A DNA stretch of 64,000 nt from a virus (taxonomy: Duplodnaviria; Caudoviricetes). Each line of letters begins with the position of its first letter. Positions within the stretch are counted from its first letter, which is position 1. The stretch lies in IMG/VR virus record IMGVR_UViG_3300033145_002422; one strand, 5' to 3'. Position numbers and translations under genes: made by a program. The notes under the pieces were generated by a model. The model was given only the letters and a program-made list of their open reading frames with translations. It was not told the origin of the DNA and did no database searches. Below, piece by piece: positions 10,502 to 64,000 of the stretch.

Positions 10502-10506
10502 ATAAA

Positions 10507-48496: not shown

Positions 48497-49201
48497 ATGA
48501 AAAGCTATGAGACTCTTATAGATAAACATGAAGGTGAGACGGCGTTTGTTGTTGGAGCAGGCACAAGCTTATATGGAGTCGATTTATCTCCGATACATGA
48601 TCATGTTGTTATATCAGTTAACAGTAGTATTATATTAATGCCTTGGCAAGATGGAGATATAAAAAATAGATATTGGATTTCTAATGATAGTGCTGTAAGG
48701 GGATGGTCATATTGGGAAGATGTAAAAAAGTCTAAGGCAACAAAGATAATAAGAAATAGTTGGAAAAAATATTATGAAGAGATTCCTGATTTTTTGGTTT
48801 TTTCTCCAAGAAAAGAAGTATCTGTAAATATAAATCTTAGTGAAAAAGCTTTATGTTATTCTAGTAGTATTCCAAGCGCTATAGATTTAGCTATACAAAT
48901 GGGATGTAAAAATATATTTTTATTGGGTGTTGATCATTATTTTAGAAATGGTAGAAGTCATTTTTGGCAGTTGTATAATAAAGAATGTCAACCTGTACCT
49001 GTTAAAACTGTAGTTCCTCCGTTTGTTTTACAGCAGCATATGTTCAATGTAAATGAACATTCATATGATTTACTAAAATGGTTTGCAGATTTTAGAAAAG
49101 CAAAAATATATAACTGCAATCCATTGAGTATGGTTAAACCATTTGATAAAATAGAATATAAAAATGCATTAGAAATGGTAAAAGAATATGGAAAAGTTTG
49201 A
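48497..49201 (+). CDS. DUF115/Maf (MptE-like) family protein
   Basis: DKHEGETAFVVGAGTSL, VISVN, SND, AIQMGCKNIFLLGVD. Confidence 0.75.
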   Translation: MKSYETLIDKHEGETAFVVGAGTSLYGVDLSPIHDHVVISVNSSIILMPWQDGDIKNRYWISNDSAVRGWSYWEDVKKSKATKIIRNSWKKYYEEIPDFLVFSPRKEVSVNINLSEKALCYSSSIPSAIDLAIQMGCKNIFLLGVDHYFRNGRSHFWQLYNKECQPVPVKTVVPPFVLQQHMFNVNEHSYDLLKWFADFRKAKIYNCNPLSMVKPFDKIEYKNALEMVKEYGKV

Positions 49202-49967
49202 AATAAAGGATTTACAAAATAAGCATAAGGGAGAAATGGCGTTTATAGTCTGTGCTGGTCCATCTCTTCATTATGAAAATGTCAATCTTTTAAAAAATTA
49301 TGTAACTATTGCTGTTAATTCTTCTGTTTTGAAAGTCCCATTTTGTGACTATTTTGTATCTGATGATGAGGGTATAGCCAGATGGAATTATTATATGGAA
49401 GATTTGAAATATATGAATTGTTTATGTCTTTTGTATGAAGATAAGTTGAAGCGATTGACATCTCATCTATCTAAAGAAAGAGTAGTATTTTTTAAGCATA
49501 AGATTTGGTACGATATCTATAAAAGAAAAAAGTATCCAGAGGGTTTGATATTAACCAATGAAGAGCCTATTATTGGAGCTAGAACATCTACAGGGACAGC
49601 TATTCATATTGCATATATTATGGGATGTAATCCTATAGTATTATTGGCAAATGATTGTTGTTACGATGGAACTAAAAAATATTATTGGCAATTCGATACT
49701 GAAAAAAAAGTAATTGCTATGAAAGGAAACGATAGGGAATTTAGTTTTCCTAATAGAGTTTATGAAAAACATAATATGGATAGTCATTGTATAGATTTTA
49801 TAGAATATTTTAATGCTTTAGAAGATTCTATAGAAAAACAAAAAAGAAATGGATTAGATATAGAATTGGTGAATATACAAAAAGGTGTTTTTAAATTGAA
49901 GTATAATAACTTTGATAGTTTAGAGAAAGTTATAGAAAAATATGGAGGTAAAAAAAAATGTCGATAG
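49188..49967 (+). CDS. DUF115/Maf (MptE-like) family protein
   Basis: NKHKGEMAFIVCAGPSL, TIAVN, AIHIAYIMGCNPIVLLAND. Confidence 0.75.
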   Translation: MEKFEIKDLQNKHKGEMAFIVCAGPSLHYENVNLLKNYVTIAVNSSVLKVPFCDYFVSDDEGIARWNYYMEDLKYMNCLCLLYEDKLKRLTSHLSKERVVFFKHKIWYDIYKRKKYPEGLILTNEEPIIGARTSTGTAIHIAYIMGCNPIVLLANDCCYDGTKKYYWQFDTEKKVIAMKGNDREFSFPNRVYEKHNMDSHCIDFIEYFNALEDSIEKQKRNGLDIELVNIQKGVFKLKYNNFDSLEKVIEKYGGKKKCR

Positions 49968-50293
49968 AAGGCCGCAACCCATTAAAAGACACTTCGGCAA
50001 AAGAAGGTATTTTTTTTGATTGTGAAATTAATTCAAATTCAGATGTTTATTCTTATAGTAACGATAATTGGCAAATAACATATGGCGATAATAGTGGAAA
50101 TTCAACTGTTGTAGCTCCTGTTACACAGCATGTAGAATATTCTTATTCTTCATATGCTCCTAACCATACAACTGTTAAAATAAATACCAATGAATTACTG
50201 GAAATAAAATTTAATATATTTGATGATTTGTCTCCAAGTGGAAGGATTCATAAATTGTCTGAATACATAAAGAAATTGAGGGAAAGTATATAA
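49958..50293 (+). CDS. Hypothetical protein (possibly degenerate 3' end)
   Basis: SD ggagg; overlapping frames downstream suggest decay. Confidence 0.4.
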   Translation: MSIEGRNPLKDTSAKEGIFFDCEINSNSDVYSYSNDNWQITYGDNSGNSTVVAPVTQHVEYSYSSYAPNHTTVKINTNELLEIKFNIFDDLSPSGRIHKLSEYIKKLRESI

Positions 50294-50452
50294 CAGTGGG
50301 AAAAGTATGGACTCAATCTACTATAGATATTGTCGCAAAACAAATTCAACAGGAAGGGGGGATGGGAAGATATTTGAAACGTTAAAAAACCTTTTGCCAG
50401 ATTCTCCAATAATTAAACTTATTAATAGTATACAAAAAATTAAGGAAAACCT

Positions 50453-51172
50453 ATGATACAAAATTATAAAATACTTTCTATAGTTCCCTGTAGGGCTGGC
50501 AGTATGGGCTTACAAGGAAAAAATTATAAGGATTTTAACGGAAGACCTCTTTTCTATTGGTCTCTAGATGCTTCTATAAAAAGCAAATATGTTGATTTAA
50601 CAGTTGTTTCCACGAATGATAATAATGTTCAAGGAAGAATGTATGGATATATGCATTCTAATATTAAATCTGAATTGCAATGTATGTGGAGGCCAGAAGA
50701 ATTATGTACTGGAACTTCCAAGAGCGAAGATACTTTGATTCATGTGAGTAAAGAACTTAAAAACAAATATGATATTATTATTATGTTGCAGCCAACTTCG
50801 CCAATAAGGACTAATAATCTTCTTGATAGGTGTATAGAGAAATTGATAGAAGAAAAAGCAGATAGTTTATTAACTGTTGGAAAGGGGAATTCTTTTTTAT
50901 GGAAGATTATAGATGGAATACCAGTAGCAGATTATGATTATCAAAATAGACCTATGAGACAAGAAATAAAAGAAAATGAATTGGTTTATGCTGACGATGG
51001 AAATGTTTATGTAATGAAGAGAGATATACTATTGAAAAATAAATGTAGAATTGGTGGAAAAATTACATTGTTTGAGAGCGATAGTTTTCAGACTTTGCAG
51101 ATAGATACAATTGAGGATTTTCAAATAATGGAGAATATTGTTAAAATTATTGGAGGTCCATTGTCTGTTTAG
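50453..51172 (+). CDS. neuA: CMP-nonulosonic acid synthetase (acylneuraminate cytidylyltransferase)
   Basis: IVPCRAGS.G..GKN, VSTND, RPEEL, LQPTSPIR, RPMRQE, IDTIEDF. Confidence 0.9.
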   Translation: MIQNYKILSIVPCRAGSMGLQGKNYKDFNGRPLFYWSLDASIKSKYVDLTVVSTNDNNVQGRMYGYMHSNIKSELQCMWRPEELCTGTSKSEDTLIHVSKELKNKYDIIIMLQPTSPIRTNNLLDRCIEKLIEEKADSLLTVGKGNSFLWKIIDGIPVADYDYQNRPMRQEIKENELVYADDGNVYVMKRDILLKNKCRIGGKITLFESDSFQTLQIDTIEDFQIMENIVKIIGGPLSV

Positions 51173-51182
51173 GAATAGCTAT

Positions 51183-51422
51183 ATGTATAATAATTATATT
51201 AATGAGAAGGGAGAAGAACTATTTCAGAAGCATGGGTGTAGTGATGGAATACATCCACTAATTCCAATATATAGTTGCTCTAAAGCGGAAAGGATAGAAA
51301 CCGTTAAATGGTGTCCGATATGTGGCTCTTATATTATTGATATTGAATATAAAAATAATATTAGAATTAATGATATAGCTAAAATGAGAAAACCAGATAT
51401 TTCTATTAGAACAAAAGATTAA
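51183..51422 (+). CDS. Small zinc-binding hypothetical protein
   Basis: WCPICG; SD agga before ATG 51183. Confidence 0.45.
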   Translation: MYNNYINEKGEELFQKHGCSDGIHPLIPIYSCSKAERIETVKWCPICGSYIIDIEYKNNIRINDIAKMRKPDISIRTKD

Positions 51423-51436
51423 GGAGATTTTTTTTA

Positions 51437-51658
51437 TTGAAATTTATAGAGCGTTATTCTGATTTAAATCATCATGAGGAATTTGGTACAGAAAATGAAC
51501 GAAGTATTATAAAATGTTGTGGTTCAACTCCATGCTGTGTTTGTGGAGAATATTCATATTTTGTAGATGGAAGACTTTTAGTTTGTTTATGCAGCGAAGA
51601 ATGTCAGAAAAAAATATGGGAAGATCTAGATGAAAAAGGAAATAAAAAACAGTTATAA
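51437..51658 (+). CDS. Small Cys-rich protein (TRASH/MYM-like CxxC...CSEEC)
   Basis: CCVCG...CSEEC; SD aaggag, TTG start. Confidence 0.5.
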   Translation: MKFIERYSDLNHHEEFGTENERSIIKCCGSTPCCVCGEYSYFVDGRLLVCLCSEECQKKIWEDLDEKGNKKQL

Positions 51659-51872
51659 GTGGTTTACAAACAAGGATTGTGAATATTATCCTTGCAAAAA
51701 GGAGCCTATAAATTGTAAATTTTGTTTCTGCCCCTTATATAATATGAAAAATTGTCCAGGCACTCCAATTTATTTGGATGATGGAACCAAAGATTGTAGT
51801 AAATGTCGATTCCCACATAAACTAGAAAATTATGATAAGATTATGTCAATTCTGAAAAGCCTTAGCAAATAG
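51630..51872 (+). CDS. Cysteine-rich small domain (zf-like) protein
   Basis: NKDCEYYPC..NCKFCFCPLY..CPG...KDCSKCRFPH. Confidence 0.75.
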   Translation: MKKEIKNSYKWFTNKDCEYYPCKKEPINCKFCFCPLYNMKNCPGTPIYLDDGTKDCSKCRFPHKLENYDKIMSILKSLSK

Positions 51873-51900
51873 AATTACGGAGAAAAAGTGTTTTATTGTT

Positions 51901-51909
51901 TGGTATAAT
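51901..51909 (+). promoter_or_regulatory. Extended -10 sigma70-type promoter element
   Basis: TG-G-TATAAT about 35 nt upstream of ATG 51944. Confidence 0.5.
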
Positions 51910-51943
51910 AGGTTCAACTCGTTTTATAATTTAGGAGAAGATA

Positions 51944-52645
51944 ATGGTTAGAAATTTAATGCTATGTTTATTGGTTGTTGTTATCTGTTTAGGAACTTTT
52001 TTAGGAATTTTTGTCGGATGTTCTATGAATATCGATGAAGACGTTGATATTCAAAGAGCATTTTTGGGAAAGATTGTCAATCCTGCTAATGGCGAAGAAG
52101 GTTTTAAAGACGCTCGCTATTATGTTGAAGAAGTTTTTTCTGATTTTAGTAAGGTTAAAAATGGCAATAGGTTTGTGGCTACTAACCTAGCTGAATATAG
52201 CTATAACAAGAACAGCCGCCATACTTTGCATGATTTATATCCTGGGAACATAGTAGAAGTTTACGAAATGAGTAATGGTAAACATTTCTTTTCTATGACT
52301 CCAACGGTCATATTTTTCGTTGCTAAAGTTCCTACTGAGTTGGAGTTGAAAGATGAACTGTCTAAATGCTCGGATAAGCATAGGGAAAAATATCAAGCAA
52401 TCATCGAAGCTAAAGATTCGAGGTATGTTCTGATAAGGCAACAATATAATAATGGCTTTGGCAGAACTATTCCTTTTGATAAAGAAAGTTTGAAAGATTC
52501 TGGACAGGATGTTTTATATGCCGCTATTAACCTGTCTGAGGAGAATGGCAAAACTCACAATTTGAAGGCCGGAACGTATGTAAGCGTATTCTCAATTAAG
52601 AAATCGAATAGCGGAGGAATATACTTCTTTAATTCTACCCCATAA
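51944..52645 (+). CDS. Putative lipoprotein
   Basis: Hydrophobic signal ending IFVGC lipobox; SD aggag. Confidence 0.6.
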   Translation: MVRNLMLCLLVVVICLGTFLGIFVGCSMNIDEDVDIQRAFLGKIVNPANGEEGFKDARYYVEEVFSDFSKVKNGNRFVATNLAEYSYNKNSRHTLHDLYPGNIVEVYEMSNGKHFFSMTPTVIFFVAKVPTELELKDELSKCSDKHREKYQAIIEAKDSRYVLIRQQYNNGFGRTIPFDKESLKDSGQDVLYAAINLSEENGKTHNLKAGTYVSVFSIKKSNSGGIYFFNSTP

Positions 52646-52671
52646 AATTCCCCAAAAATAAAGAAGGAGTA

Positions 52672-52705: not shown

Positions 52706-52723
52706 ATTTATTTGGGGAAAACA

Positions 52724-52882: not shown

Positions 52883-52884
52883 AA

Positions 52885-53760
52885 ATGGCTATCGGAAAAT
52901 CGGTTAACATTGTTGCTGAGGCTTGCTGTAATCACCAGGGTAATTTAGACCTCGCTTTTGATATGATCAAAACAGCCAAGTTGTGTGATGTAGATTATGT
53001 AAAATTCCAAAAGAGGAATTGCGTTAAGGCTGTACCGAAGCATATGCATAATCAGCCTCATCCATATGCGGCAAATTCGTTTGGCGAGACCTATTTACAG
53101 CATAGGGAGGCGTTGGAGTTTACGATAGATCAGCATAAGCAGTTAAAAGATTATTGTGACTCTATTGGCATAAAATATGCCTGTTCGGTTTGGGATGAAG
53201 ATTCGGCAGCAGAAATTATATCTCTAAACCCTGAGTATATCAAGATTCCAAGTGCTATGAATTACAATTTTGAATTGTTGGATTATGTCTTTGATAACTA
53301 TGATGGAGATATACATATTTCATTTGGAATGATAACGAGAAATGAGATTAACGATTTGATTTCTCATTTGAAAGGACAAAAAAACCATATCGTTGCCTAT
53401 TGGACCACTAGTGGATATCCGGTTTCATTTGACGAATTGTATTTGTTGGAAATAGGAAATCTCAAAAAGTATTTTGAAGTTGGATACAGCGGTCATAATC
53501 TCGGAATTGCCGTGGACATGGCTACGATAGTTTTGGGTTGTACTTGGGTAGAAAGGCATTTCACTTTGGACAGAACAGCAAAGGGAACGGATAATGCTGC
53601 TAGTCTAGAACCAGCAGGCTTATCTAAGTTGGTTCGTGACTCAAAAGCTGTTATTAAGTCTTTGCAATATAAAAATATAGACTTAACTGAGGATGAAAAA
53701 GAAACTAGGGAGAAATTAAAGATATGGGAAAAAAAATTAATTCACCCAAACATAATCTAG
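52885..53760 (+). CDS. neuB: Nonulosonate(-9-phosphate) synthase, short form without SAF domain
   Basis: IVAEACCNHQG, VKFQKR, SVWD, IKIPSA, GYSGH, ERHFTLDR..KGTD..ASLEP. Confidence 0.92.
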   Translation: MAIGKSVNIVAEACCNHQGNLDLAFDMIKTAKLCDVDYVKFQKRNCVKAVPKHMHNQPHPYAANSFGETYLQHREALEFTIDQHKQLKDYCDSIGIKYACSVWDEDSAAEIISLNPEYIKIPSAMNYNFELLDYVFDNYDGDIHISFGMITRNEINDLISHLKGQKNHIVAYWTTSGYPVSFDELYLLEIGNLKKYFEVGYSGHNLGIAVDMATIVLGCTWVERHFTLDRTAKGTDNAASLEPAGLSKLVRDSKAVIKSLQYKNIDLTEDEKETREKLKIWEKKLIHPNII

Positions 53761-54368
53761 AAGGGAAAAGATTCGGTAAATTAGTCGCACAAAAAGAATA
53801 TAAAAGAGAAACCAAGGATCTTCCTAGCGGAAAGGCTTATTTCCTTTATTGGCTATGTAAATGTGATTGTGGAAATGAGAAATGGATTAATGCTAATCAT
53901 TTGAAAAGGGGACAAACTAGAAGTTGTGGTTGTTATAGCGTTGCTTATCGTTGCCGAGGGCGTTTGCTGGAAAAAGGATTAGCGGCAAAAAACAGATGCT
54001 ATGCTCAGTACGAGACAGTTGCTAAAAGAAATAATAGAAAGTTTGAATTAACTTTTGAGCAGTTTATCGACATTACATCTCATAATTGTTATTATTGTGG
54101 AGCAGAACCGTCTAATATGAGTAAATCTGGCAAATATAGCGGAGATTATATCTATAATGGTGTAGATAGATTAGATAATTCCAAAGGGTATATCCTAACT
54201 AACTGCGTGCCGTGCTGTAAGACATGTAACAAAACTAAATTAAAAATGTCAAGAAAAGAATTTGTGGACTGGGTTTCTAGGGTATATGACCATATAGTTA
54301 CCGGGGAGACTTGGGATGCCCACAGAAGCTACAGGAGACCCAGGGACGCATTTACTCCTTCTCCATAG
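53724..54368 (+). CDS. Free-standing HNH homing endonuclease
   Basis: GKRFGKL..WLCKCDCGN..SCGC N-terminal domain; CYYCG..NGVDRLDNSKGY...NCVPCCKTCN. Confidence 0.85.
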   Translation: MGKKINSPKHNLEGKRFGKLVAQKEYKRETKDLPSGKAYFLYWLCKCDCGNEKWINANHLKRGQTRSCGCYSVAYRCRGRLLEKGLAAKNRCYAQYETVAKRNNRKFELTFEQFIDITSHNCYYCGAEPSNMSKSGKYSGDYIYNGVDRLDNSKGYILTNCVPCCKTCNKTKLKMSRKEFVDWVSRVYDHIVTGETWDAHRSYRRPRDAFTPSP

Positions 54369-54559
54369 GAGTAACGAGGATTGGGATGCGGAAGCTGTTG
54401 TAGAGCCTCTGGGATGCATTCTTGAGGGTTTCTCTTTTGTAGCTTAACTGCATCTGCTCCAGAATTTTTCGCCAATTGAATAAGCATTTTGGCTCTATCC
54501 ATATTCCCAATATGTGTATTGCCTATTTCTGCTGTGATGAAAGGTTTTTTATATATCAT
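54329..54559 (-). pseudogene. neuB: Truncated, inverted second neuB (N-terminal ~67 aa)
   Basis: MIYKKPFITAEIGNTHIGN...GADAVKLQKRNP...PHPNPRYSYGE then stop; intact SD aaggagg. Confidence 0.85.
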
Positions 54560-54637: not shown

Positions 54638-54880
54638 ATGTATTATAAAGAGGCTATAGAAAAAGCAATACATTGGAGAAGCGGGGTCGAAGAAGTTGTA
54701 TTTCCAGAAATAATGTTATATTTAGCGGCAATTATTCATAATGATCCAGATGCTGAAGTTTTTCGTGAATTATGTAAGATAAAAGCAATGCATAGAGAAT
54801 ATTATGATTTATATGAAAAGTTAGATCAAAAATATTCAAAATATATTTATATTGATGGAGATAGTTATGAATCTGGATGA
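54638..54880 (+). CDS. Hypothetical protein
   Basis: SD ggagg; TGnTAGAAT extended -10-like element at 54607-54615. Confidence 0.55.
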   Translation: MYYKEAIEKAIHWRSGVEEVVFPEIMLYLAAIIHNDPDAEVFRELCKIKAMHREYYDLYEKLDQKYSKYIYIDGDSYESG

Positions 54881-55487
54881 TAAAGCAAAAAATATTAAAT
54901 TATTAATTATTGACATTGACGGAACGATTACCAACGGAGATTATCAGGTTAATGAAGATGGAAAGGTTACGAAATCTTTTTATACGAGAGATTTTTCTTA
55001 TATAGAAAAAATACTTAAAATGGGTGATTTTCCAATATGCGTATTACTGTTGACAAGTTCTTGGGATAATTGCATAGTTAATAAATATATGAAACTCTCA
55101 TATTGTGATAGATGGAACTTTTTACTTAAAATTCATATAGAAGATAAAAAGAAATATATCGAAGAAGAAATTATCCAAGTAAAAAATAAAAGTCCTTTTA
55201 GCATAGTTTGTGATAATAGTGATGATATGACAGTAAAAACAATAGAAAAGAAACATCCTTATTTAAATGTTTTTTCTAGAATTACTTGGGATAATATTGC
55301 CTATATTGGCGATGGCATAAATGATTTGGAGTCTATGAAATTGGCTTCTATAACAGGATGCCCAGAAGATGCTGAAGAAGAAATTAAAGAAGAATCTCAT
55401 TTTGTATCGAAATGTAATGGTGGAAGAGGAGCAGTAGCTGAATTTATAAAATATCTGATTTCTCTTAGGGAGACTAAAAATGAGTAA
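54867..55487 (+). CDS. HAD phosphatase, KdsC/YrbI (KDO-8-P/KDN-9-P phosphatase) family
   Basis: IKLLIIDIDGTITNG, KSFYTRD, AYIGDGIND, CPEDA, GGRGAVAEF. Confidence 0.88.
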   Translation: MNLDDKAKNIKLLIIDIDGTITNGDYQVNEDGKVTKSFYTRDFSYIEKILKMGDFPICVLLLTSSWDNCIVNKYMKLSYCDRWNFLLKIHIEDKKKYIEEEIIQVKNKSPFSIVCDNSDDMTVKTIEKKHPYLNVFSRITWDNIAYIGDGINDLESMKLASITGCPEDAEEEIKEESHFVSKCNGGRGAVAEFIKYLISLRETKNE

Positions 55488-56920: not shown

Positions 56921-57340
56921 ATGGGGGGGTTAATAGTTATTAGCGAATTTCATTCATGCACGATTTCTCTCACGGATAATCAATGTATTATAGAAGCATT
57001 GGTTGAAATGGGATATAAACCTAAAGTTAGCGATAAACCTCAAAATCTTTATGGATATCTTGGAGATAAAAGAGAACAAAAAGCTCATATTATAATTCCA
57101 CGTTCACAGATAACCAATGCCAGTAATGATATAGGTTTTGAGAAAATTGGTAAAAACTATATTGTTCATATCAGTCAATATGATGAACAAATACATAGTT
57201 TTGATATAGATAAGTTGAAGCAGTTATATGGAAAACACAGGATAAAGAAATTTGTTAAAATGAAAACTGGGAAATATAATATTAAGAGTCAAAAGGTAAA
57301 GAAAGATGGAACTATAGAAATAATTATTAGAACCTTATAA
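56921..57340 (+). CDS. DUF1257 (Ycf35-like) protein
   Basis: ALVEMGY...LYGYLGD.R.QKAHIIIPR......NDIGF.....Y..HIS.YD. Confidence 0.7.
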   Translation: MGGLIVISEFHSCTISLTDNQCIIEALVEMGYKPKVSDKPQNLYGYLGDKREQKAHIIIPRSQITNASNDIGFEKIGKNYIVHISQYDEQIHSFDIDKLKQLYGKHRIKKFVKMKTGKYNIKSQKVKKDGTIEIIIRTL

Positions 57341-57352: not shown

Positions 57353-57952
57353 ATGTCGCAAAAAATAAGCAGAAAAATAAAGGAAAGGCAAAAAAGAAAA
57401 AATAGAAAAAAGCAAGAATCTGAGTTACTTCAGAAAAATGCACAAATAAGAACAAGAGTCATTAAGTTTGATGCGCCAATGTTATATTCTCCAGCGTTGG
57501 ATATATTGGGTAAAGAACATTTTGAAAAGATTAACAGTGATTTTGGATTTAATATTCTTAATAGATTAAAGAGAACGGTTATCGCTTTTAAAAATGGTGC
57601 TGGACTTTCTGCTAATCAAATTAATCTTCCATATAATGTTTCTGTTTTAAGATTTGATACAAAGAATAATGATACATTTGTTATGATTAATCCAAAAATC
57701 GTTGAACATGGCGAAGACATGGAGGAAGAAATAGAAGGATGTTTGTCATTCCCTGAGTATTATACAAAAATTAAAAGATATCATAACATAAAGGTTGAAT
57801 ATTTTGATGAGAATTTTGAGAAGAAGACTGCTAATTATCATGGATATGAAGCGAGAGTTGTTCAGCATGAATTAGATCATAACCTTGGCAAGCCATGCCT
57901 TGGTGAATTTTATAGACAAGAGAAAGAAAAATCTTTATTAAAAAGAACATAA
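57353..57952 (+). CDS. def: Peptide deformylase
   Basis: GAGLSANQI, EGCLS, QHELDH motifs. Confidence 0.93.
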   Translation: MSQKISRKIKERQKRKNRKKQESELLQKNAQIRTRVIKFDAPMLYSPALDILGKEHFEKINSDFGFNILNRLKRTVIAFKNGAGLSANQINLPYNVSVLRFDTKNNDTFVMINPKIVEHGEDMEEEIEGCLSFPEYYTKIKRYHNIKVEYFDENFEKKTANYHGYEARVVQHELDHNLGKPCLGEFYRQEKEKSLLKRT

Positions 57953-57972
57953 AAATAATCCGATAAATATAC

Positions 57973-58755
57973 ATGGAGATTTTAACAAGAGATAGTTTTT
58001 TATCAAGAAAAAAAAGTGATACTATAGTTATATATGGAAGCGGTTATTCTATTAATGATATTACTGAAGATCAGTGGAGTAAACTAAACCAATTTGATAG
58101 TATAGGATTTAACTGGTTTCTTAAGAGTAGGAGACCAGTTACTTTTTATTTATTGAGAGAGCAGGATATTTGGAGGAAAAATGGAACAGGAGACGAATCT
58201 AGAAGAGAGTTAAGGGATATATTAAATCAGTGTTATATAGATACATGTTGCATAGTTGTTGATCTCTCTAAATCCCACCACAAGTGGCAAACGACAGAAC
58301 ACTATGGTAAACCTATATATCAAAAACATATTAATCTGTCAGGCGTTATTGTAAAGGAAATTTTTGCTAAAAAAAGTTTGACTAAATACATAAAAAATAA
58401 AAACAGTAAAAAAGTATTATGCGATTGTTTCGAATCCCATGATATATTTGATAATGGTCTTATATATGATTTTTGCTCCTTAGTCAGTGTACTCCATTTG
58501 GTTACTTTTTTACAATATAAAAGAATAATATTTGCTGGTATCGATTTATACGATCATAGATACTTTTGGCTTAAAAGTAATAAGTTACGAACTGCTACAA
58601 GGGAAAAGGGGCGATTATTAGATTCAAAACATTTTGTTGCTGATTATACGTGTAGAGTAGTTGGTACTTATAGTAAATATTTTAAAAATGTTGATATTTC
58701 GGTATTGAATCCGAAATCTCTTTTAACTAAAAAAATAAAAACATGGAGTTTTTAA
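57973..58755 (+). CDS. DUF115/Maf- or sialyltransferase-like protein
   Basis: TIVIYGSGYSI, SIGFN, LQYKRIIFAGIDLY. Confidence 0.6.
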   Translation: MEILTRDSFLSRKKSDTIVIYGSGYSINDITEDQWSKLNQFDSIGFNWFLKSRRPVTFYLLREQDIWRKNGTGDESRRELRDILNQCYIDTCCIVVDLSKSHHKWQTTEHYGKPIYQKHINLSGVIVKEIFAKKSLTKYIKNKNSKKVLCDCFESHDIFDNGLIYDFCSLVSVLHLVTFLQYKRIIFAGIDLYDHRYFWLKSNKLRTATREKGRLLDSKHFVADYTCRVVGTYSKYFKNVDISVLNPKSLLTKKIKTWSF

Positions 58756-59525
58756 TGAGCGATATAAGAATTGTAACATTGGCTGATTTTAAATATTTCA
58801 AGTATGTTAAAGCGCTAGTGAATAGTATAAGTCAAAATCTTTCAGTAGTAAAAGTTCATGTATATTTAGTTAATTTAACTAAAGAGCATGGACAGGTTTT
58901 GCAATCTATCCATCCTAATTTAGAATATACTATAGAGGATGTTAAGTTCCAGTGCGATTTACAAAAAAAGTGTTATTGTACTAATAGACGAAGTAAAATA
59001 TTAAATGATCTTAGGAAAAGCACTAAAGATATTCTGGTTTGGTTAGATGCGGATTCCTTGGTAGTAAAAAAAATTCCAGAGTTTATAGATTTTGTGCAAG
59101 ATTGCGATTTATCTGTTAGATTTAAAAATGATTCTGATTTGAATAACAATAAAAAAAAGAAGAAGAAGCCAAGAGGATTCATGGCTGGTTTAATTGTTGT
59201 TGGTAATTCAGAAAATGCAAGAATGTTTACCGAGATGTATGATGAAATGCTTTCTCAAAATAGTTATAAAAAAGTTAAAATAAATTATACATGTCCAATT
59301 GCCAGATTACCATTACCAATCAAAGTAGTATGGATGGCTAATCAGGATATATTATTTAAGGTTTATAAGAGAATAAAGGATAAGAATAATTTTTATTTTA
59401 AACCTCTTCCTCAAGAATATTTGGATTGTTCTTTTAGCGATAAAACTGCTATATGGTCGGTCAAAGCAAGTAATCGTAGTGATAAGAAGTTCAATAAAAT
59501 ATTTCAAAAATATAAAATAAAATAG
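58755..59525 (+). CDS. GT-A glycosyltransferase (GT8/GT77-like)
   Basis: WLDADS DXD, FMAGLI, NQDIL. Confidence 0.7.
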   Translation: MSDIRIVTLADFKYFKYVKALVNSISQNLSVVKVHVYLVNLTKEHGQVLQSIHPNLEYTIEDVKFQCDLQKKCYCTNRRSKILNDLRKSTKDILVWLDADSLVVKKIPEFIDFVQDCDLSVRFKNDSDLNNNKKKKKKPRGFMAGLIVVGNSENARMFTEMYDEMLSQNSYKKVKINYTCPIARLPLPIKVVWMANQDILFKVYKRIKDKNNFYFKPLPQEYLDCSFSDKTAIWSVKASNRSDKKFNKIFQKYKIK

Positions 59526-59539
59526 GAATTTAAATTAAT

Positions 59540-60373
59540 ATGAAAAAGAAAAAGACTATTAATAAGAAAATTTTATCTTCTCATGTTGTATTTTCGCATG
59601 ATACTAATAATACTGGAGATCTTTTTACTATTTTGACTGCTGCTCGAAACACTAAAAAATATTTAGATGATTGGGCTAGTTCTATAGTTGATCAGACTTA
59701 TAGACCTCTTGAAGTTGTAGTAGTAGATGATTGTTCCGAAGATGGTACTAAAAAAAAGCTCATAGAATTATGTAAGATTTTTGTTAAAAATAATATTCAA
59801 GTTAGATTTATTAGAAATTCTGTTAAAAGCGGTTGTGGTACTAGTTATGCTGTTGCTATGGATTATGCAAATGGAAAGTTTTTTGGAGTATTAGATTCTG
59901 ATGATATGTTGAAAAGTTTTTCGACAGAATATATTGTGGGACTCTATAGAGAATATACAGATGTAGCATGGATATATACCCAATTTAATAAATATAATGA
60001 AAAGATGAAATTTTTAAAAATAGGTTGTTCCAGGCACCCTGGACCACGTTCTTTGTTAGAACTGGGAGAAATACAAGCGTATTCTCATTGGAGGACTTTT
60101 TCAGATCGTATAGTTGAACGAGATACATTGTTTAAACGTGGTTTAAAGGGCGCTGTAGATAAATATTTAGGATATAGATTAGAAGAGTTAGGAACTGGTA
60201 TGTTTGTAGATAGAGTTTGTTATAAATACAGAAAACGTAAAAATTCTATAACAACTACTCCTCAATTATATATAAGAGGAATTTGGAGAAAAATGATAAA
60301 ATCATTCCGGAACAGTAGAAGCAAAAATATTAAGGTTTATCCAATTCTATTTTATGATGGGAAAAAGAAATGA
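59540..60373 (+). CDS. Glycosyltransferase family 2
   Basis: QTYRPLEVVVVDDCSEDGT, VLDSDD. Confidence 0.85.
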   Translation: MKKKKTINKKILSSHVVFSHDTNNTGDLFTILTAARNTKKYLDDWASSIVDQTYRPLEVVVVDDCSEDGTKKKLIELCKIFVKNNIQVRFIRNSVKSGCGTSYAVAMDYANGKFFGVLDSDDMLKSFSTEYIVGLYREYTDVAWIYTQFNKYNEKMKFLKIGCSRHPGPRSLLELGEIQAYSHWRTFSDRIVERDTLFKRGLKGAVDKYLGYRLEELGTGMFVDRVCYKYRKRKNSITTTPQLYIRGIWRKMIKSFRNSRSKNIKVYPILFYDGKKK

Positions 60374-61320
60374 GACCAGTAATCTATTTAGCTAAAGAAG
60401 GTTTTGTAGGAGGTCCGAGAAGTTTTAGAGATAGGTTACGTGCTATTTTGAAGACGATGCCAGAAGTATCGATAACGAATAATCTTGATAAGTTTGATGT
60501 TGAATTAGCTTTTATACGGTCAAAAAATAAAAGCAAGAAACCAACTGTTCTTAGAGTAGATGGGTGTTATTACCGCAAAAAAGATTTATTTAAAAATAAT
60601 GATATAATTAAATCTATAAAAAATGCAAAATATGTAATATTTCAATCTAATTTTTCTGCCGAGATGTGTAAAAAAATTATGAAAGTAAATCCTAAGAATT
60701 GTAGTATTATCTATAATGGTATTGATAAAAAGTTTATAGATTCTATTATTCCAGATAAAACTGTAGAACCTGGTTCTTTTGTGGCATGTTCAAATACATG
60801 GAAAAGAAGACCTAATAAAAGAGCAAAATCAATTCTTGGAGGATTTTTGAAAGCTGGAATAGATAAACATTTGTATATTATAGGAAAATATCATAATGAA
60901 TGGAAAGATTCTGAATATAAGCATCCACGTATCCATTTTTGTGGATTAAAATCCGCAAAAAAGGTGTTACCAATTGTTAAAGCTTGTGATTATCAAATTC
61001 ATTTATGTCATATTGATTCATGTCCTAATGCGGTTGTAGAGGGGCTTGCTTGCGGATTAAATGTTCTTTGTACGAATTTGGGTGGTACCCAGGAAATCGT
61101 TGGAGATAATGGAGTTGTTTTGGATGTGGATAAATGGGATTTTAAACCGCTATCTGAAGATATATTTGAAAATTTAGATAACCTTAATCTAAATGATGTG
61201 GCAGAAGGAATACATAGGCTTATGAAAATTACAGAAAGAACGAATAGGCCAGATTTAAATATTTATGGAAAAGCAAAACAATATGTTGAAATTTTATTAA
61301 AGGTGGGAAATGGAATATAA
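60370..61320 (+). CDS. Glycosyltransferase family 4
   Basis: GGPRSF, IIYNGID, DSCPNAVVEGLACG...GGTQE. Confidence 0.85.
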   Translation: MRPVIYLAKEGFVGGPRSFRDRLRAILKTMPEVSITNNLDKFDVELAFIRSKNKSKKPTVLRVDGCYYRKKDLFKNNDIIKSIKNAKYVIFQSNFSAEMCKKIMKVNPKNCSIIYNGIDKKFIDSIIPDKTVEPGSFVACSNTWKRRPNKRAKSILGGFLKAGIDKHLYIIGKYHNEWKDSEYKHPRIHFCGLKSAKKVLPIVKACDYQIHLCHIDSCPNAVVEGLACGLNVLCTNLGGTQEIVGDNGVVLDVDKWDFKPLSEDIFENLDNLNLNDVAEGIHRLMKITERTNRPDLNIYGKAKQYVEILLKVGNGI

Positions 61321-62020
61321 GGTATCTGTTGTTGTTACATTATATAATTACAAGAAATACATTGTTGATTGTATAAACTCTTTTATTAAGCAGGATTTTA
61401 ATGATTCCGAAATGGTTATTGTTGACGATGCATCAACTGATAATCCTCAAGATGTTATTAAACCATTTTTATCTGATAGGATAAGGTATATTCTACTGGA
61501 TGAAAACCAGGGATATTCTCACGCCAAGAATGTTGGGATTAAGGCAACTAAGTCGGAGATATTGGTTATGCTTGATGCTGATGATATGCTGACATTCAAC
61601 AGCATAACAAAGCGTTACGAAAAAATGTTGGAAGGTTTTGATTTTGTTCATGGGCCTGCTCTAGATTTAAAGAGGGGCAATCTATCCAAATCTAGAATGT
61701 GGAATGATTGGAAGAAAAAGCGTATTTTTAAGTATGTTCATGCTCAAAGTATCATGTTGAAAAAAGATATCCACAGAAAGATAGGGCTGTATGATGAGGA
61801 GTTAAGAAGCAAGTCAGATAGGGAGATGTTCGCTCGTATTTTTCATCATGGTTTTGCTACTTCTTTTGTCAAGAGTACGGTGGCTATTTATCGGCATCAT
61901 CCTAAACAGATGCATAGATCAAAAGAGAAGTTGCGTATTAATGAAAAGCTTCAACGTCAGGTTTTAAAAAAGATAAATAAAAGAAAGCATGATTTGTCTG
62001 GTTTGGAAATGCTAGAATAA
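61310..62020 (+). CDS. Glycosyltransferase family 2
   Basis: VSVVVTLYN, IVDDASTD, LDADD, GLYDE...DREM. Confidence 0.88.
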   Translation: MEYKVSVVVTLYNYKKYIVDCINSFIKQDFNDSEMVIVDDASTDNPQDVIKPFLSDRIRYILLDENQGYSHAKNVGIKATKSEILVMLDADDMLTFNSITKRYEKMLEGFDFVHGPALDLKRGNLSKSRMWNDWKKKRIFKYVHAQSIMLKKDIHRKIGLYDEELRSKSDREMFARIFHHGFATSFVKSTVAIYRHHPKQMHRSKEKLRINEKLQRQVLKKINKRKHDLSGLEMLE

Positions 62021-62037
62021 ATATAAGGGATAATTAT

Positions 62038-63039
62038 ATGCAGGTTAAACCTAGAAGTTATACTGAGTTAGTTGGTGCCAGCAATGGTAAGTTGCAGACA
62101 ATGAAAACTCTAGTTCTTCGCAAACCATTGAGCCTTAATAAGCAAAATCAGAAACTTAAAAAACCATCTATCTGCATTGTTTGTAATTATACATTTTATG
62201 AAAAAAAAATGAATTGGAGTAAAAAAGTAAAAGCTATTTGTCATCCATTCCATAATGATAATATATTCCCATCTTCAATTCCAAAGTTTTTGTTATCAGA
62301 ATCTGATTTTTGTGATCAATTAGTAACAGTTACTAATGTTAAAAAATCAAAATTTGAAAAAATGAAATATGATTTTATATATTTTACTTTACTATCAACC
62401 CAGGGAATAAATTGCAAAGGTTTGTATATGCTTGATATTATTAATAATGCGGCTGTTGACGCTGGACTTAAGGGGCTAATCGTTAATTACAATTCTGGTT
62501 CATCTAATACAAAAAAATATAAAACTCAACTTAATGATTTGAAATTAGCTAAAAGTAGATGGAAGAATCTTAGTAGTTGCAAATGTATGTCTCAATGTTT
62601 GACAGGTGGAAGCGTATGTGCAGCAATGAAAGCGGCAAAATTTGTTTTATTTCCTAATACATCAGATGCTAGCCCTCGACTTATCGTAGAATCAATAGTT
62701 AGAGGTAGACCAGTATTGGTTAATGAGAATATATATGGGGGTTGGAAATATATTAATAAAAATACAGGAAGGTTTTTTAAAGCTCCTTCTATTGAAGAAT
62801 ATAAGAAATGTGATTTATCTGCTTATACAAAAAAATTGAGTGAATCGATGAAATCTATGACTGAAATAGATCAAAAAAAAATAAAACCTGAATATTACAA
62901 AGAATATGGTTTTTTGAATACAAGTAAAAGACTTGCTGATATAATTTATCAGACAACTGGTGAAAAATATGATTTAGTTTGTTTTAAAGAATGGAAAGAA
63001 ATTTTGAGAGGAGTTGCAAAGAATGAAGGTTTCATTTAA
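62038..63039 (+). CDS. GT-B glycosyltransferase-like protein
   Basis: FPNTSDASPRLIVESIVRGRPVL..GG. Confidence 0.65.
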   Translation: MQVKPRSYTELVGASNGKLQTMKTLVLRKPLSLNKQNQKLKKPSICIVCNYTFYEKKMNWSKKVKAICHPFHNDNIFPSSIPKFLLSESDFCDQLVTVTNVKKSKFEKMKYDFIYFTLLSTQGINCKGLYMLDIINNAAVDAGLKGLIVNYNSGSSNTKKYKTQLNDLKLAKSRWKNLSSCKCMSQCLTGGSVCAAMKAAKFVLFPNTSDASPRLIVESIVRGRPVLVNENIYGGWKYINKNTGRFFKAPSIEEYKKCDLSAYTKKLSESMKSMTEIDQKKIKPEYYKEYGFLNTSKRLADIIYQTTGEKYDLVCFKEWKEILRGVAKNEGFI

Positions 63040-63937
63040 TATTGATATAGGTGCAAAAGATGCAGATTCTGGTAAAGGAAAGTTCCTTTTGAGACTTTCT
63101 CATGCAATGTCTGATCTTGGAGTTGATATCGTTAATAAAAAAGCAGATATTAATTTGATTTTGCCTTGTGAAAAAATGGATAAAAAAGCTAAGGTTAATA
63201 TTGTTAGGGTTGATGGGTTAATTTTGAATTCTGCTCAAAATTATAAACAGAAAAATAATTTATTAGTAAAATCTATGAAGAATGCAGATGCTATTATATA
63301 TCAAACAAAATTTTGTTACACAGCATATAAAAAATTTTTAAGAATAAAAAAAGAGTATGCTATTATTGTTAATGGAGCTGATCCTAACGAGTTTTTACAA
63401 AGGAATGTTAAAAACTTTTTTCTTGCTAGTTGTAAGTGGAGACCGCATAAGAGGCTGAAAGAAATTGTAAAGTGTTTTTTGTTATCTCTTGATTCTGGAT
63501 TAGATTCATATTTAATTGTAACTGGAAAACCAGATTATATAAAAAAACATCCAAGAATTAAATATGTTGGTTGGCAGGGAATAAATGAATTAAAGGTTTA
63601 TTTGTCAGAAGCAATAGCTAGTTTACATCTAACATGGCTAGATTGGTGTCCTAACTCTATGGTAGAATCTATTGTAGCTGGGTGCCCAGTTATTTATACA
63701 GATTCTGGTGGGCATTCTGAAATTGGTGGAGATAATACTGGTGTTTCTATTCCTGATATTCAATGGGATTTTAAACCATGTAAACTTTATAATCCCCCAT
63801 CTCTTAATTCCGATTTAGTAGTAGAAGCAATGCTTAGAATGAAAAAAGAAAAAATTGTTATTTTGAAGCCTGAACTTTATATAGAAAATGTTGCAAAAAA
63901 ATATATAGAGTATTTTAATTATTTATTGGAGAAATAA
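63023..63937 (+). CDS. Glycosyltransferase family 4 (paralog of 60370..61320)
   Basis: RVDG, VNGAD, WRPHKR, DWCPNSMVESIVAG...GGHSE. Confidence 0.85.
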   Translation: MKVSFNIDIGAKDADSGKGKFLLRLSHAMSDLGVDIVNKKADINLILPCEKMDKKAKVNIVRVDGLILNSAQNYKQKNNLLVKSMKNADAIIYQTKFCYTAYKKFLRIKKEYAIIVNGADPNEFLQRNVKNFFLASCKWRPHKRLKEIVKCFLLSLDSGLDSYLIVTGKPDYIKKHPRIKYVGWQGINELKVYLSEAIASLHLTWLDWCPNSMVESIVAGCPVIYTDSGGHSEIGGDNTGVSIPDIQWDFKPCKLYNPPSLNSDLVVEAMLRMKKEKIVILKPELYIENVAKKYIEYFNYLLEK

Positions 63938-63941
63938 CTGT

Positions 63942-64000
63942 ATGAAAGTTTTTATAGATTTAGGAGCATTTAATGGTGATACCATTAAAAAAGCTATAGT
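63942..64000 (+). CDS. FkbM-family methyltransferase, 5' fragment (runs off window)
   Basis: MKVFIDLGAFNGDT SAM-binding motif. Confidence 0.6.
   Translation, partial: MKVFIDLGAFNGDTIKKAI

What the first reader, a model, noticed from the sequence alone, without database searches (positions are those of the whole stretch)
48497..64000. Phage-encoded nonulosonic (sialic/KDN-like) acid synthesis, activation and transfer system
Seen: NeuB synthase, KdsC-type HAD phosphatase, NeuA CMP-transferase, three DUF115/Maf-like proteins, six further GT2/GT4/GT8-like enzymes and an FkbM methyltransferase start; two more GTs follow the giant virion gene at 9.7 kb. No NeuC epimerase is in the window. Known: synthase + phosphatase + cytidylyltransferase is the 9-phosphate route used for CMP-KDN in Bacteroides, and Maf proteins transfer CMP-nonulosonates onto flagellin. 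Inference: the phage builds its own sialic-acid-like glycan, to decorate virion proteins or remodel the host surface; DNA modification is a less likely target.
Basis: partly seen in the sequence, partly recalled or inferred. Interest (0 to 1): 0.8.

Follow-up and report, generated by a model that had tools for sequence, protein, structure and literature searches.

The report
Phage sialic-acid-like sugar gene island
A 256-kb uncultured phage carries intact genes that should make, activate and attach a nine-carbon acidic sugar of the sialic-acid family (most likely Kdn) and build a larger glycan around it; no such phage system has been tested in the laboratory, and what gets coated is unknown.

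Summary
Window 48.5-64 kb holds:
- a NeuB-family synthase without the usual C-terminal SAF domain
- a KdsC-like HAD phosphatase
- a CMP-sugar synthetase
- two short DUF115 proteins
- a third DUF115/GT42-like transferase
- six further glycosyltransferases
- a 19-residue FkbM-like gene start

There is no NeuC. None of these proteins has a membrane segment.

The synthase is 50-55% identical to Bacteroidota enzymes that sit in synthase/cytidylyltransferase/phosphatase trios, including the Bacteroides faecis counterpart of the characterised B. thetaiotaomicron CMP-Kdn cluster. In a tree it falls in a phage-only sister clade.

A model of one DUF115 protein (pLDDT 95) matches the catalytic core of the Maf glycosyltransferase (Z 17.2) better than the MptE pterin kinase (Z 11.5). 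Its family profile hits a bacterial sialyltransferase.

All 21 IMG/VR loci with a close DUF115 homologue also carry the synthase and the cytidylyltransferase within 10 kb. None of 80 bacterial loci carries the DUF115 genes.

Best reading: a phage CMP-Kdn-like pathway plus phage-specific "core-only Maf" transferases, acting in the cytoplasm. The sugar's identity and the target (virion or host surface) are inferred, not shown.

This scan has already reported the same module in at least 23 other genomes. I found no paper describing it. Specific to this window: a homing-endonuclease gene sits after the synthase gene, next to a reversed fragment of a second synthase gene.

The parts
48497..49201 (+). 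DUF115 paralogue A ('core-only Maf'), putative CMP-nonulosonate transferase or partner subunit
   Evidence: PF01973 at 30.7 bits, below the gathering score. 27% identical to paralogue B, E 2e-19. Homologues lie next to B-type genes in viral loci. The ORF opens at TTG 48482, but the N-termini of relatives (MKSY...) fit the ATG at 48497. It lacks the Arg and His that are invariant in the B type.
49188..49967 (+). DUF115 paralogue B ('core-only Maf'), putative CMP-nonulosonate transferase
   Evidence: PF01973 at 42.9 bits. AF2 model pLDDT 95.3. VIA-align: Maf 5mu5 residues 259-520 at Z 17.2, 204 aa aligned; MptE at Z 11.5; CstII at about Z 10. Family profile against a Pasteurella alpha-2,3-sialyltransferase gives E 3e-7; against MptE, 0.12. 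All 21 close viral homologues lie within 10 kb of NeuB and the cytidylyltransferase.
50453..51172 (+). CMP-nonulosonate synthetase (NeuA/PseF/KdsB-type cytidylyltransferase)
   Evidence: PF02348 at 56.6 bits. Best NCBIfam is PseF at 73.5 bits against a cut-off of 205.7. It keeps all 12 residues that are invariant among 17 phage and Bacteroides homologues, including R14, K23, N24, Q113, T115 and P117.
52885..53760 (+). NeuB-family nonulosonate(-9-phosphate) synthase without a SAF domain
   Evidence: PF03102 at 198 bits. TIGR03569 at 176 bits against a cut-off of 399.65, matching model positions 2-274 of 329. Best PDB hit is the 290-aa 6ncs. 50-55% identical to Bacteroidota enzymes that sit in trios. 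Falls in a phage-only clade beside the cellular clade.
53724..54368 (+). HNH-type homing endonuclease gene inserted after NeuB (not a pathway gene)
   Evidence: Cys-rich HNH-like motifs are visible in the translation. No Pfam hit. Homologues lie near NeuB in L001, L002, L003 (two copies) and other viral loci.
54359..54559 (-). Remnant: N-terminal ~67 residues of a second NeuB gene, reversed and cut off at the end of the HNH gene
   Evidence: BLASTP against the window's own NeuB: 41% identity, E 2e-12. 52-55% identical to the L003 and L105 NeuB proteins. tblastn finds nothing further downstream of it.
54852..55487 (+). KdsC-like HAD phosphatase, putative nonulosonate-9-phosphate phosphatase
   Evidence: NCBIfam KdsC 69 bits, Kdn-9-P phosphatase 66.6 bits, both far below cut-off. 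PDB hits include the 3ewi CMP-Neu5Ac synthetase C-terminal domain, KdsC, and the 164-aa chains 3e81/4hgq, deposited as 'acylneuraminate cytidylyltransferase', which I take from memory to be BT1713. DIDGT and GDGINDLE motifs present. Homologues follow NeuB in 17 of 21 close viral loci and 67 of 80 bacterial loci. Fused to the cytidylyltransferase in L006 and in B. faecis.
57973..58755 (+). Third DUF115-superfamily protein, GT42 (CstII)-like putative nonulosonate transferase
   Evidence: Family profile against CstII: E 1.5e-9 over almost the full length. 24 of 60 family members hit PF01973. AF2 model pLDDT 94.8. Fold matches tie at Z 11.8 for Maf, CstII and MptE. hhalign to the DUF115 profile covers only the GxD motif region.
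58743..59525 (+). GT8-like glycosyltransferase (weak)
   Evidence: PF01501 at 23.8 bits against a cut-off of 24.3.
59540..60373 (+). GT2 glycosyltransferase
   Evidence: PF00535 at 68 bits. Homologue in the syntenic L005.
60370..61320 (+). GT4 glycosyltransferase
   Evidence: PF13692 at 40.8 bits and PF00534 at 32 bits. Homologue in L005.
61310..62020 (+). GT2 glycosyltransferase
   Evidence: PF00535 at 100.9 bits. 56% identical homologue in L005.
62038..63039 (+). GT-B (GT4-like) glycosyltransferase
   Evidence: No Pfam hit. The Atlas structure search finds GT4 clusters at TM 0.64-0.74. Homologue in L005.
63014..63937 (+). GT4-like glycosyltransferase (weak)
   Evidence: PF13692 at 24.7 bits, below cut-off. 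45% identical homologue in L122.
63942..64000 (+). Start of a possible FkbM-type methyltransferase (runs off the window)
   Evidence: Only 19 residues are visible. Methyltransferases occupy the equivalent position in the syntenic contig.
9644..11640 (+). Separate GT2 + GT4 pair directly after the 2458-aa Kelch/LamG protein
   Evidence: PF00535 at 54.2 bits and PF00534 at 77.8 bits. The GT2 start overlaps the end of the giant gene by 38 nt.

Best explanation
This is a phage-encoded pathway for an activated nonulosonic acid, joined to transferases that use it.

Proposed steps, all inferred from homology:
1. The SAF-less NeuB condenses phosphoenolpyruvate with a host hexose 6-phosphate. Mannose 6-phosphate is the most likely substrate, which would give Kdn 9-phosphate.
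2. The KdsC-like HAD phosphatase removes the phosphate.
3. The cytidylyltransferase makes the CMP-sugar.
4. Three soluble proteins of the DUF115/GT42 sialyltransferase-fold superfamily transfer the sugar to its acceptor. Two are 'core-only Maf' paralogues and one is CstII-like.
5. Six ordinary GT2/GT4/GT8 enzymes, and at least one methyltransferase beyond the window's end, build the rest of an acidic glycan.

All the enzymes lack membrane segments, and no flippase, polymerase or initiating lipid-carrier transferase is present. I therefore think assembly happens in the cytoplasm on a soluble acceptor, most probably phage structural proteins. The target is the weakest, purely inferred step.

My sub-probabilities: makes a CMP-nonulosonate 0.85; the sugar is Kdn 0.55; the DUF115 proteins transfer it 0.7; the target is the virion 0.4.
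For: Gene content and intact motifs.

Synthase:
- It belongs to a large SAF-less family.
- The 80 best cellular members are mostly Bacteroidota. 77 of 80 have the cytidylyltransferase next to them and 67 of 80 have the HAD.
- In B. faecis the adjacent HAD scores 174.7 bits on the BT1713-based Kdn-9-P phosphatase model, whose cut-off is 180.
- The B. thetaiotaomicron and Prymnesium enzymes of this pathway use Man-6-P (PMC6200933).

DUF115 proteins:
- Fold: Maf core at Z 17.2 against MptE at Z 11.5.
- Family profiles hit sialyltransferases: 9c08 at E 3e-7 and CstII at E 1.5e-9.
- Some family members carry the CST-I domain PF06002.

Co-occurrence:
- Of 34 viral NeuB loci, 26 have the cytidylyltransferase nearby.
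- All 21 close viral DUF115-B loci have NeuB, the cytidylyltransferase and an A-type paralogue. 17 of them have the HAD.
- Cytidylyltransferase-HAD fusions link those two steps.

Other:
- No hydrophobic segments in any enzyme.
- Synteny with a second phage contig, which lacks the unrelated small genes found here.
Against: - Every specific NCBIfam equivalog score is far below cut-off.
- The phage synthase lies beside the clade that holds the Kdn cluster, not inside it. Substrate specificity is therefore extrapolated.
- Fold alone does not separate Maf, CstII and MptE for the third protein: all three score Z 11.8.
- Paralogue A lacks residues that are invariant in paralogue B.
- The island is broken up by unrelated genes and lies among replication genes, not structural genes.
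- Peripheral-membrane glycosyltransferases that work on host lipid-linked glycans also lack membrane helices, so the solubility argument is weak.
- No acceptor protein has been identified.
Confidence: 0.6

Rival explanations
1. Same pathway, different target. The glycan is added to host envelope structures (LPS or capsule intermediates, S-layer, pili or flagellin). This would block superinfection or keep progeny phage from sticking to lysed cells.
For: - Known Maf enzymes act on flagellin, and GT42 enzymes act on lipooligosaccharide (molecule names).
- One distant family member is fused to a Wzx-like Polysacc_synt domain (P0314).
- The island lies in the early/replication gene region rather than the structural region.
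- A lipoprotein-like gene sits inside it.
Against: - No membrane enzyme, flippase or initiating transferase is present.
- The phage DUF115 proteins lack the N- and C-terminal Maf domains (259 aa against 632 in the solved Maf chain 5mu5).
- The DUF115 genes are absent from all 80 bacterial Kdn-type loci, so they are not simply borrowed host surface enzymes.
Confidence: 0.3
2. The sugar is not Kdn. The synthase uses ManNAc-6-P (giving Neu5Ac-9-P) or another hexose phosphate, so the product is a different or new nonulosonate.
For: - The phage clade is separate from the cellular clade that contains the Kdn cluster.
- Identity to that clade is only about 52%.
- All equivalog scores are sub-threshold.
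- Related huge phages carry up to three NeuB paralogues, and one of them also radical-SAM and methyltransferase genes, which suggests chemical diversification.
Against: - The scanned ORFs of the window include no NeuC, NanE, aminotransferase, dehydratase or acetyltransferase that could supply an amino-sugar precursor.
- Man-6-P is available in any host.
- The characterised SAF-less enzymes of this pathway use Man-6-P, and the Prymnesium enzyme accepted nothing else among the sugars tested (PMC6200933).
Confidence: 0.35
3. The nonulosonate is attached to phage DNA as a base hypermodification that protects against host nucleases.
For: Phage gene clusters have been shown to put sugar acids, including the ulosonic acid Kdo, on hydroxymethylcytosine (10.1101/2023.12.21.572611). 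The island lies among DNA-metabolism genes.
Against: - The scanned ORFs of the window include no hydroxymethylase, TET-like dioxygenase or C5-cytosine methylase.
- The 385-aa methylase carries a DPPY motif, which is adenine type. The other methylase is N6_N4.
- The transferases here have the sialyltransferase fold, whereas the one DNA glycosyltransferase described in the passages I read has the T4 beta-GT (GT-B) fold.
- Only 64 of 256 kb could be inspected.
Confidence: 0.07
4. The DUF115 proteins are MptE-type pterin pyrophosphokinases unrelated to the sugar genes. The synthase trio merely boosts a host pathway.
For: The Pfam family is named after MptE. MptE is the second-best fold match at Z 11.5-11.8.
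Against: - Maf scores Z 17.2 with 204 aligned residues, against 157 for MptE.
- The profiles give E 3e-7 and 1.5e-9 to sialyltransferases against 0.12 to MptE.
- Co-occurrence with NeuB and the cytidylyltransferase is strict, 21 of 21.
- No folate or pterin genes were found in the window.
Confidence: 0.03

Closest known systems
CMP-Kdn pathway of Bacteroides thetaiotaomicron (BT1714 Kdn-9-P synthase, BT1713 Kdn-9-P phosphatase, CMP-Kdn synthetase) and of Prymnesium parvum (PMC6200933)
   Same: The same three enzyme families and the same logic: PEP plus a sugar 6-phosphate, then dephosphorylation, then CMP activation. The synthase lacks a SAF domain and is about 52% identical to the enzyme of the B. 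faecis counterpart cluster. No epimerase is needed.
   Different: It is encoded by a phage. The synthase sits in a phage-only sister clade. The phosphatase and cytidylyltransferase are only 25-30% identical and are separate genes rather than a fusion. The genes are coupled to DUF115 transferases, which are absent from the bacterial clusters.
Maf (motility accessory factor) flagellin nonulosonate glycosyltransferases, e.g. Magnetospirillum Maf, PDB 5mu5
   Same: The central catalytic domain has the same fold (Z 17.2, 204 residues aligned, rmsd 3.1 A) and belongs to the same Pfam family, PF01973.
   Different: The phage proteins are the core alone (239-259 aa). They lack the flanking Maf domains, they come as an A/B paralogue pair, and no flagellin gene lies nearby.
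GT42 sialyltransferases CstII/CstI of Campylobacter and the Pasteurella alpha-2,3-sialyltransferase (PDB 1ro7, 2p2v, 9c08)
   Same: Profile-level sequence similarity over the whole domain, including the GxGxS, GxD and C-terminal N-x-x-S-L-L motifs. Same fold at Z 10-12.
   Different: Identity is only 13-20%. Whether the catalytic histidine aligns is uncertain. Donor and acceptor are unknown.
Predicted Kdo pathway clusters of the giant viruses CroV and Fadolivirus; virion glycosylation by phage-encoded glycosyltransferases in mycobacteriophages (PMC9614988; Freeman 2023 as cited in PMC12619734)
   Same: A virus carries its own ulosonic-acid synthesis, activation and glycosyltransferase genes within a larger sugar island. 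Cytoplasmic glycosylation of virion proteins by virus-encoded enzymes has precedent.
   Different: Those cases involve eight-carbon Kdo made by a KdsA-type synthase in eukaryotic viruses, or neutral sugars in mycobacteriophages. Here it is a nine-carbon NeuB-type product in a tailed phage.

Membership tests
NeuB family (PF03102) nonulosonate synthases | NeuB TIM-barrel domain above the Pfam gathering score | tested here: met
   198 bits against a cut-off of 22.1.
NeuB family (PF03102) nonulosonate synthases | Conserved metal-binding His pair and catalytic acidic residues | tested here: met
   E12, K40, S202-G-H204, E223-x-H225 and D236 are invariant in 30 homologues and align with the PDB NeuB and PseI motifs. 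Assigning roles to these residues rests on my memory of the N. meningitidis structure.
Canonical NeuB/PseI equivalogs (TIGR03569, TIGR03586) | Full-length match including the C-terminal SAF domain, above the curated cut-off | tested here: not met
   176.3 bits against 399.65, and 124.2 against 340.25. The match ends at model position 274 of 329 and the protein is 291 aa long.
Kdn-9-phosphate synthase (BT1714 type) | SAF-less synthase clustered with a KdsC-like phosphatase and a cytidylyltransferase | tested here: met
   All three genes lie within 5 kb here. The trio is conserved in 67-77 of 80 bacterial loci.
Kdn-9-phosphate synthase (BT1714 type) | Falls inside the clade of the characterised enzyme | tested here: inconclusive
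   The window's protein is in a viral-only clade (support 92), in a polytomy with the clade (support 99) that holds all cellular sequences, including B. faecis. The BT1714 sequence itself was not available.
Kdn-9-phosphate synthase (BT1714 type) | Uses mannose 6-phosphate | not testable with these tools
   Needs an enzyme assay.
KdsC / Kdn-9-P phosphatase (HAD, C0 type) | HAD catalytic motifs | tested here: met
   DIDGT at residues 21-25 and GDGINDLE at residues 153-160. PDB hits to KdsC proteins and to the 164-aa 3e81/4hgq chains, which I take from memory to be BT1713.
KdsC / Kdn-9-P phosphatase (HAD, C0 type) | Score above the curated equivalog cut-off | tested here: not met
   69 against 208 (KdsC), 66.6 against 180 (Kdn-9-P phosphatase) and 62.6 against 106.95 (TIGR01670). 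The protein is 20-40 aa longer than most phage homologues of this gene (169-194 aa; one is 210).
CMP-nonulosonate/Kdo synthetases (PF02348) | Domain above the gathering score and conserved nucleotide-binding residues | tested here: met
   56.6 bits against 22.6. R14, S17, K23, N24, Q113, T115 and P117 are invariant in the family alignment and present here. The PseF equivalog cut-off is not met: 73.5 against 205.7.
Maf flagellin glycosyltransferases | Central DUF115 catalytic domain | tested here: met
   PF01973 at 42.9 bits for paralogue B. Z 17.2 to 5mu5 residues 259-520. Paralogue A is below the gathering score at 30.7 bits.
Maf flagellin glycosyltransferases | Flanking N- and C-terminal domains (about 600-aa protein) and linkage to flagellin genes | tested here: not met
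   The proteins are 239 and 259 aa long and cover the central domain only. No flagellar genes were seen in the ORFs of the window that I scanned.
GT42 sialyltransferases (CstII type) | Sequence-profile and fold similarity across the catalytic domain | tested here: met
   For 57973-58755: profile E 1.5e-9 to CstII residues 6-225 and Z 11.8.
GT42 sialyltransferases (CstII type) | Catalytic histidine (His188 of CstII) | tested here: inconclusive
   A nearly invariant His (H220) lies in the matching loop, but HMMER aligns it four residues from the position I take, from memory of CstII numbering, to be His188.
MptE 6-hydroxymethyl-dihydropterin pyrophosphokinase | Closest fold or sequence relative, and a pterin-pathway context | tested here: inconclusive
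   Z 11.5 against 17.2 for Maf. Profile E 0.12. No folate genes nearby. Activity not testable here.

The most novel reading that the evidence does not exclude
Huge phages make their own CMP-Kdn-type sugar and use phage-specific, core-only Maf transferases to coat their own capsid, tail or fibre proteins with an acidic, sialic-acid-like glycan inside the infected cell. That would be the first bacteriophage particle known to carry a nonulosonic acid.
Probability: 0.35. Interest if true: 0.8.

Novelty: new variant of a known kind. Interest (0 to 1): 0.6.

Why it matters
Sialic-acid-type sugars control recognition, charge and immune visibility on cells. They are known on bacteria, archaea and eukaryotes, and as receptors for viruses.

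A whole clade of large phages seems to make such a sugar from a central metabolite and to attach it with its own minimal transferases. If that is right:
- Virus-encoded glycosylation would extend to nonulosonic acids.
- The 240-260-residue DUF115 proteins would be compact, soluble candidate nonulosonate transferases. Few such enzymes are characterised.
- Two ecological ideas would become testable: shielding of the virion, or re-labelling of the host surface.

I found no paper describing such a phage pathway. Of 50,697 deposited phage records, only 3 have any NeuB match and none has the DUF115-B gene.

Tried and rejected
No whole genome is held.
- The search for related loci with the single NeuB protein found nothing. 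An alignment was needed. The broad DUF115 alignment was too diverse to scan with.
- megablast of the island against phage records: no match.
- Wang et al. 2008, the original BT1714 paper, is not held. I relied on PMC6200933 instead.
- Promoter and terminator scans gave counts at chance level. The CACCTGA word reported elsewhere in this genome occurs once in the window, which is at chance.
- I tested 53724-54368, 51944-52645 and 62038-63039 as further DUF115 proteins by hhalign. All were rejected.
- 55480-55995, which is conserved after the HAD gene in two phages, gave only a weak Atlas lead to ResIII/DEAD P-loop proteins. I do not count it as a pathway gene.
- The GT8 + GT42-like fusion protein P0244 links the two families only at family level. 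Its GT8 half is not detectably similar to the window's GT8-like gene.
- PDB sequence searches for the 385-aa methylase and its neighbour found nothing.
- The giant protein has no Ser/Thr-rich tracts that would mark an obvious O-glycosylation target.

Full report
**Setting.** The window is part of a 255,885-bp metagenomic contig (P0001). GC content is about 30%. Every convincing gene is on the + strand and GC skew is constant. Kilobases 11.7-48.5 encode replication and repair proteins, several interrupted by inteins: a split DnaE, RecA, UvrD, DnaB and helicases. No whole genome is held for it. No cultured phage is close: the best DnaE match is 33% identical. Earlier notes of this scan call it a 256-kb uncultured phage with tail genes upstream of the window. 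I did not test that.

**Observation.**
- Pathway enzymes: a cytidylyltransferase (50453-51172), a NeuB-family synthase (52885-53760) and a KdsC-like HAD (54852-55487).
- Transferases and sugar-modifying genes:
  - two MptE-like/DUF115 proteins (48497-49201 and 49188-49967)
  - a run of seven transferase genes from 57973 to 63937
  - a 19-residue FkbM-like start at the window's end
- No NeuC or other sugar-nucleotide enzyme turned up in any scanned ORF of the window.

The island is not a tight operon. Between the pathway genes lie these unrelated genes:
- three small Cys-rich proteins
- a lipoprotein-like gene
- a ribbon-helix-helix-like gene
- an HNH endonuclease
- a DUF1257 gene
- a peptide deformylase gene

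A related 68-kb viral contig (L005/L122) has the same order from UvrD through the island but lacks those inserts. It adds a sugar dehydrogenase fragment and three methyltransferases. This defines the core module and argues against contamination.

**The synthase.** It is 291 aa long and lacks the SAF domain. It matches positions 2-274 of the 329-position NeuB model and scores far below the equivalog cut-offs. Its best solved relative is a 290-aa protein, 6ncs.

It belongs to a very large SAF-less family. Thirty homologues share invariant residues at the positions of the metal-binding histidines and catalytic acids.

The 80 best cellular relatives are 48-55% identical and mostly from Bacteroidota. 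Of these, 77 have the cytidylyltransferase next to them and 67 have the HAD.

In Bacteroides faecis the adjacent HAD scores 174.7 bits on the model built for the B. thetaiotaomicron Kdn-9-P phosphatase, whose cut-off is 180. It lies in one open frame with the cytidylyltransferase. That pathway uses mannose 6-phosphate and needs no epimerase (PMC6200933).

In a maximum-likelihood tree the window's protein sits in a phage-only clade of eight (support 92). That clade is in a polytomy with the clade (support 99) that holds all cellular sequences. Both lie inside a SAF-less group (support 98), apart from SAF-bearing paralogues. Kdn is therefore the most economical reading, but it is an extrapolation.

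**The phosphatase and cytidylyltransferase.** The HAD keeps the catalytic motifs. It hits KdsC proteins, the C-terminal domain of mouse CMP-Neu5Ac synthetase and 164-aa chains that I take to be BT1713. It is longer than most of its phage homologues.

The cytidylyltransferase keeps all residues that are invariant among 17 homologues. Fusions of the two enzymes occur in a viral locus (L006) and in B. faecis, which ties them to one pathway.

**The DUF115 proteins.**
- A 66-sequence alignment gave an AlphaFold model of 49188-49967 with pLDDT 95.3.
- VIA-align ranks the central domain of the Maf glycosyltransferase first (Z 17.2, 204 residues, 3.1 A). It stands clearly above the MptE pterin kinase (Z 11.5, 157 residues) and CstII (Z about 10).
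- The family profile hits a Pasteurella alpha-2,3-sialyltransferase at E 3e-7, against 0.12 for MptE.
- Some family members carry the CST-I domain.
- Paralogue A is 27% identical to B but lacks an Arg and a His that are invariant in B.
- The third protein, 57973-58755, has no Pfam hit itself. Its family profile matches CstII at E 1.5e-9 over the whole domain, and 24 of 60 members hit PF01973. Its model has pLDDT 94.8 and ties Maf, CstII and MptE at Z 11.8.

**Context evidence.**
- 26 of 34 IMG/VR loci with the synthase have the cytidylyltransferase within 10 kb.
- In the reverse direction, all 21 loci with a close DUF115-B homologue have the synthase, the cytidylyltransferase and an A-type paralogue. 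17 have the HAD. Ten more distant DUF115 loci have none of these.
- None of the 80 bacterial loci has a DUF115 homologue.
- None of 50,697 deposited phage records does either.
- Many of the viral contigs are 200-550 kb long.

The pairing of a bacterial-type Kdn trio with core-only Maf proteins is therefore a feature of a clade of large phages.

**Target.** None of the enzymes has a hydrophobic segment. There is no flippase, polymerase or initiating transferase. This fits cytoplasmic glycosylation of a soluble acceptor, as in mycobacteriophage and giant-virus virion glycosylation (PMC12619734, PMC9614988). It does not exclude action on host lipid-linked intermediates.

A separate GT2+GT4 pair overlaps the end of a 2458-aa Kelch/LamG protein. 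That protein has no Ser/Thr-rich tracts.

DNA modification deserves a small probability, because phage enzymes can add Kdo to hydroxymethylcytosine. However, the scanned ORFs of the window show only adenine-type or N6/N4 methylases and no hydroxymethylase.

**Literature and earlier scan notes.** Eight full-text searches found no description of a phage nonulosonate pathway. The nearest published cases are predicted Kdo clusters in giant viruses and the myxoma virus sialyltransferase. This scan has already logged 26 similar findings in at least 23 genomes, with follow-ups reaching the same reading. My analysis agrees with them and was done independently of their details.

**Specific to this window.** An HNH endonuclease gene overlaps the end of the synthase gene. 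Directly after it, on the opposite strand, lies the first ~67 codons of a second, more bacterial-like synthase gene, cut off at the HNH stop codon.

**Verdict.** This is a real, intact phage island. It most likely performs Kdn-type sugar synthesis, activation and transfer. It is a new variant of known enzymology in a new carrier. The sugar's identity and the target remain open.

Noticed in passing
window 53724-54559: An HNH-type endonuclease gene overlaps the 3' end of NeuB. It is followed, on the minus strand, by a ~67-codon N-terminal fragment of a second NeuB gene, 41% identical to the resident one and 52-55% to others. Homologues of the HNH gene lie near NeuB in several related phages. NeuB may be a homing target, and the fragment may be a scar of such an event.
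   Followed up: partly
window 29964-32507, 37676-40012, 42833-44710, 45468-48485: Four intein-containing genes in one window: the N-terminal DnaE piece, RecA, a Hint/LAGLIDADG protein with a CxxCxxCC motif, and UvrD. This is an unusually high load of selfish elements.
   Followed up: no
window 51138-51872: Three consecutive small Cys-rich proteins (94, 73 and 80 aa). The last matches PF04071 'cysteine-rich small domain' at 72.7 bits. They sit between the cytidylyltransferase and NeuB and are absent from the syntenic contig L005.
   Followed up: no
window 51944-52645: A 233-aa protein with a strongly hydrophobic N-terminus ending in a lipobox-like ...FVGC. It looks like a phage lipoprotein inside the sugar island and could be a superinfection-exclusion candidate.
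   Followed up: no
window 56921-57340 (DUF1257) and 57353-57952 (peptide deformylase): DUF1257 homologues lie within 10 kb of the module in 11 of 31 viral DUF115 loci, and deformylase homologues in 7 of 31. The link to the sugar genes is unexplained.
   Followed up: partly
window 56007-56471: A 154-aa protein made of two copies of a ~45-residue repeat (YNHIRV...LLFTD...AxKNxEDLP...W). It is conserved after the HAD gene in L005. No family match.
   Followed up: no
window 2305-9681: A 2458-aa protein with Laminin_G_3, a Kelch beta-propeller and weak VWA hits. The propeller also gives a faint, sub-threshold hit to the sialic-acid mutarotase family NANM (28 bits against a cut-off of 45). A GT2 and a GT4 gene follow it directly.
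   Followed up: partly
G001 (547-kb phage, L003/L120/L121) and G002 (351-kb phage, L004/L118): Each of these related huge phages has three NeuB-family genes. In G002 a second island (L118) holds two of them (one with a SAF domain), another cytidylyltransferase, a B12-binding radical-SAM enzyme, FkbM methyltransferases, GT4s and a 2-hydroxyacid dehydrogenase. One phage may therefore make more than one nonulosonate.
   Followed up: partly
L006:10860-11993 and L051:9177-10340: Cytidylyltransferase-HAD phosphatase fusion proteins occur in a viral contig and in Bacteroides faecis. In the tree, the viral L006 synthase groups with a Muribaculum sequence, which suggests a recent transfer between host and phage.
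   Followed up: partly
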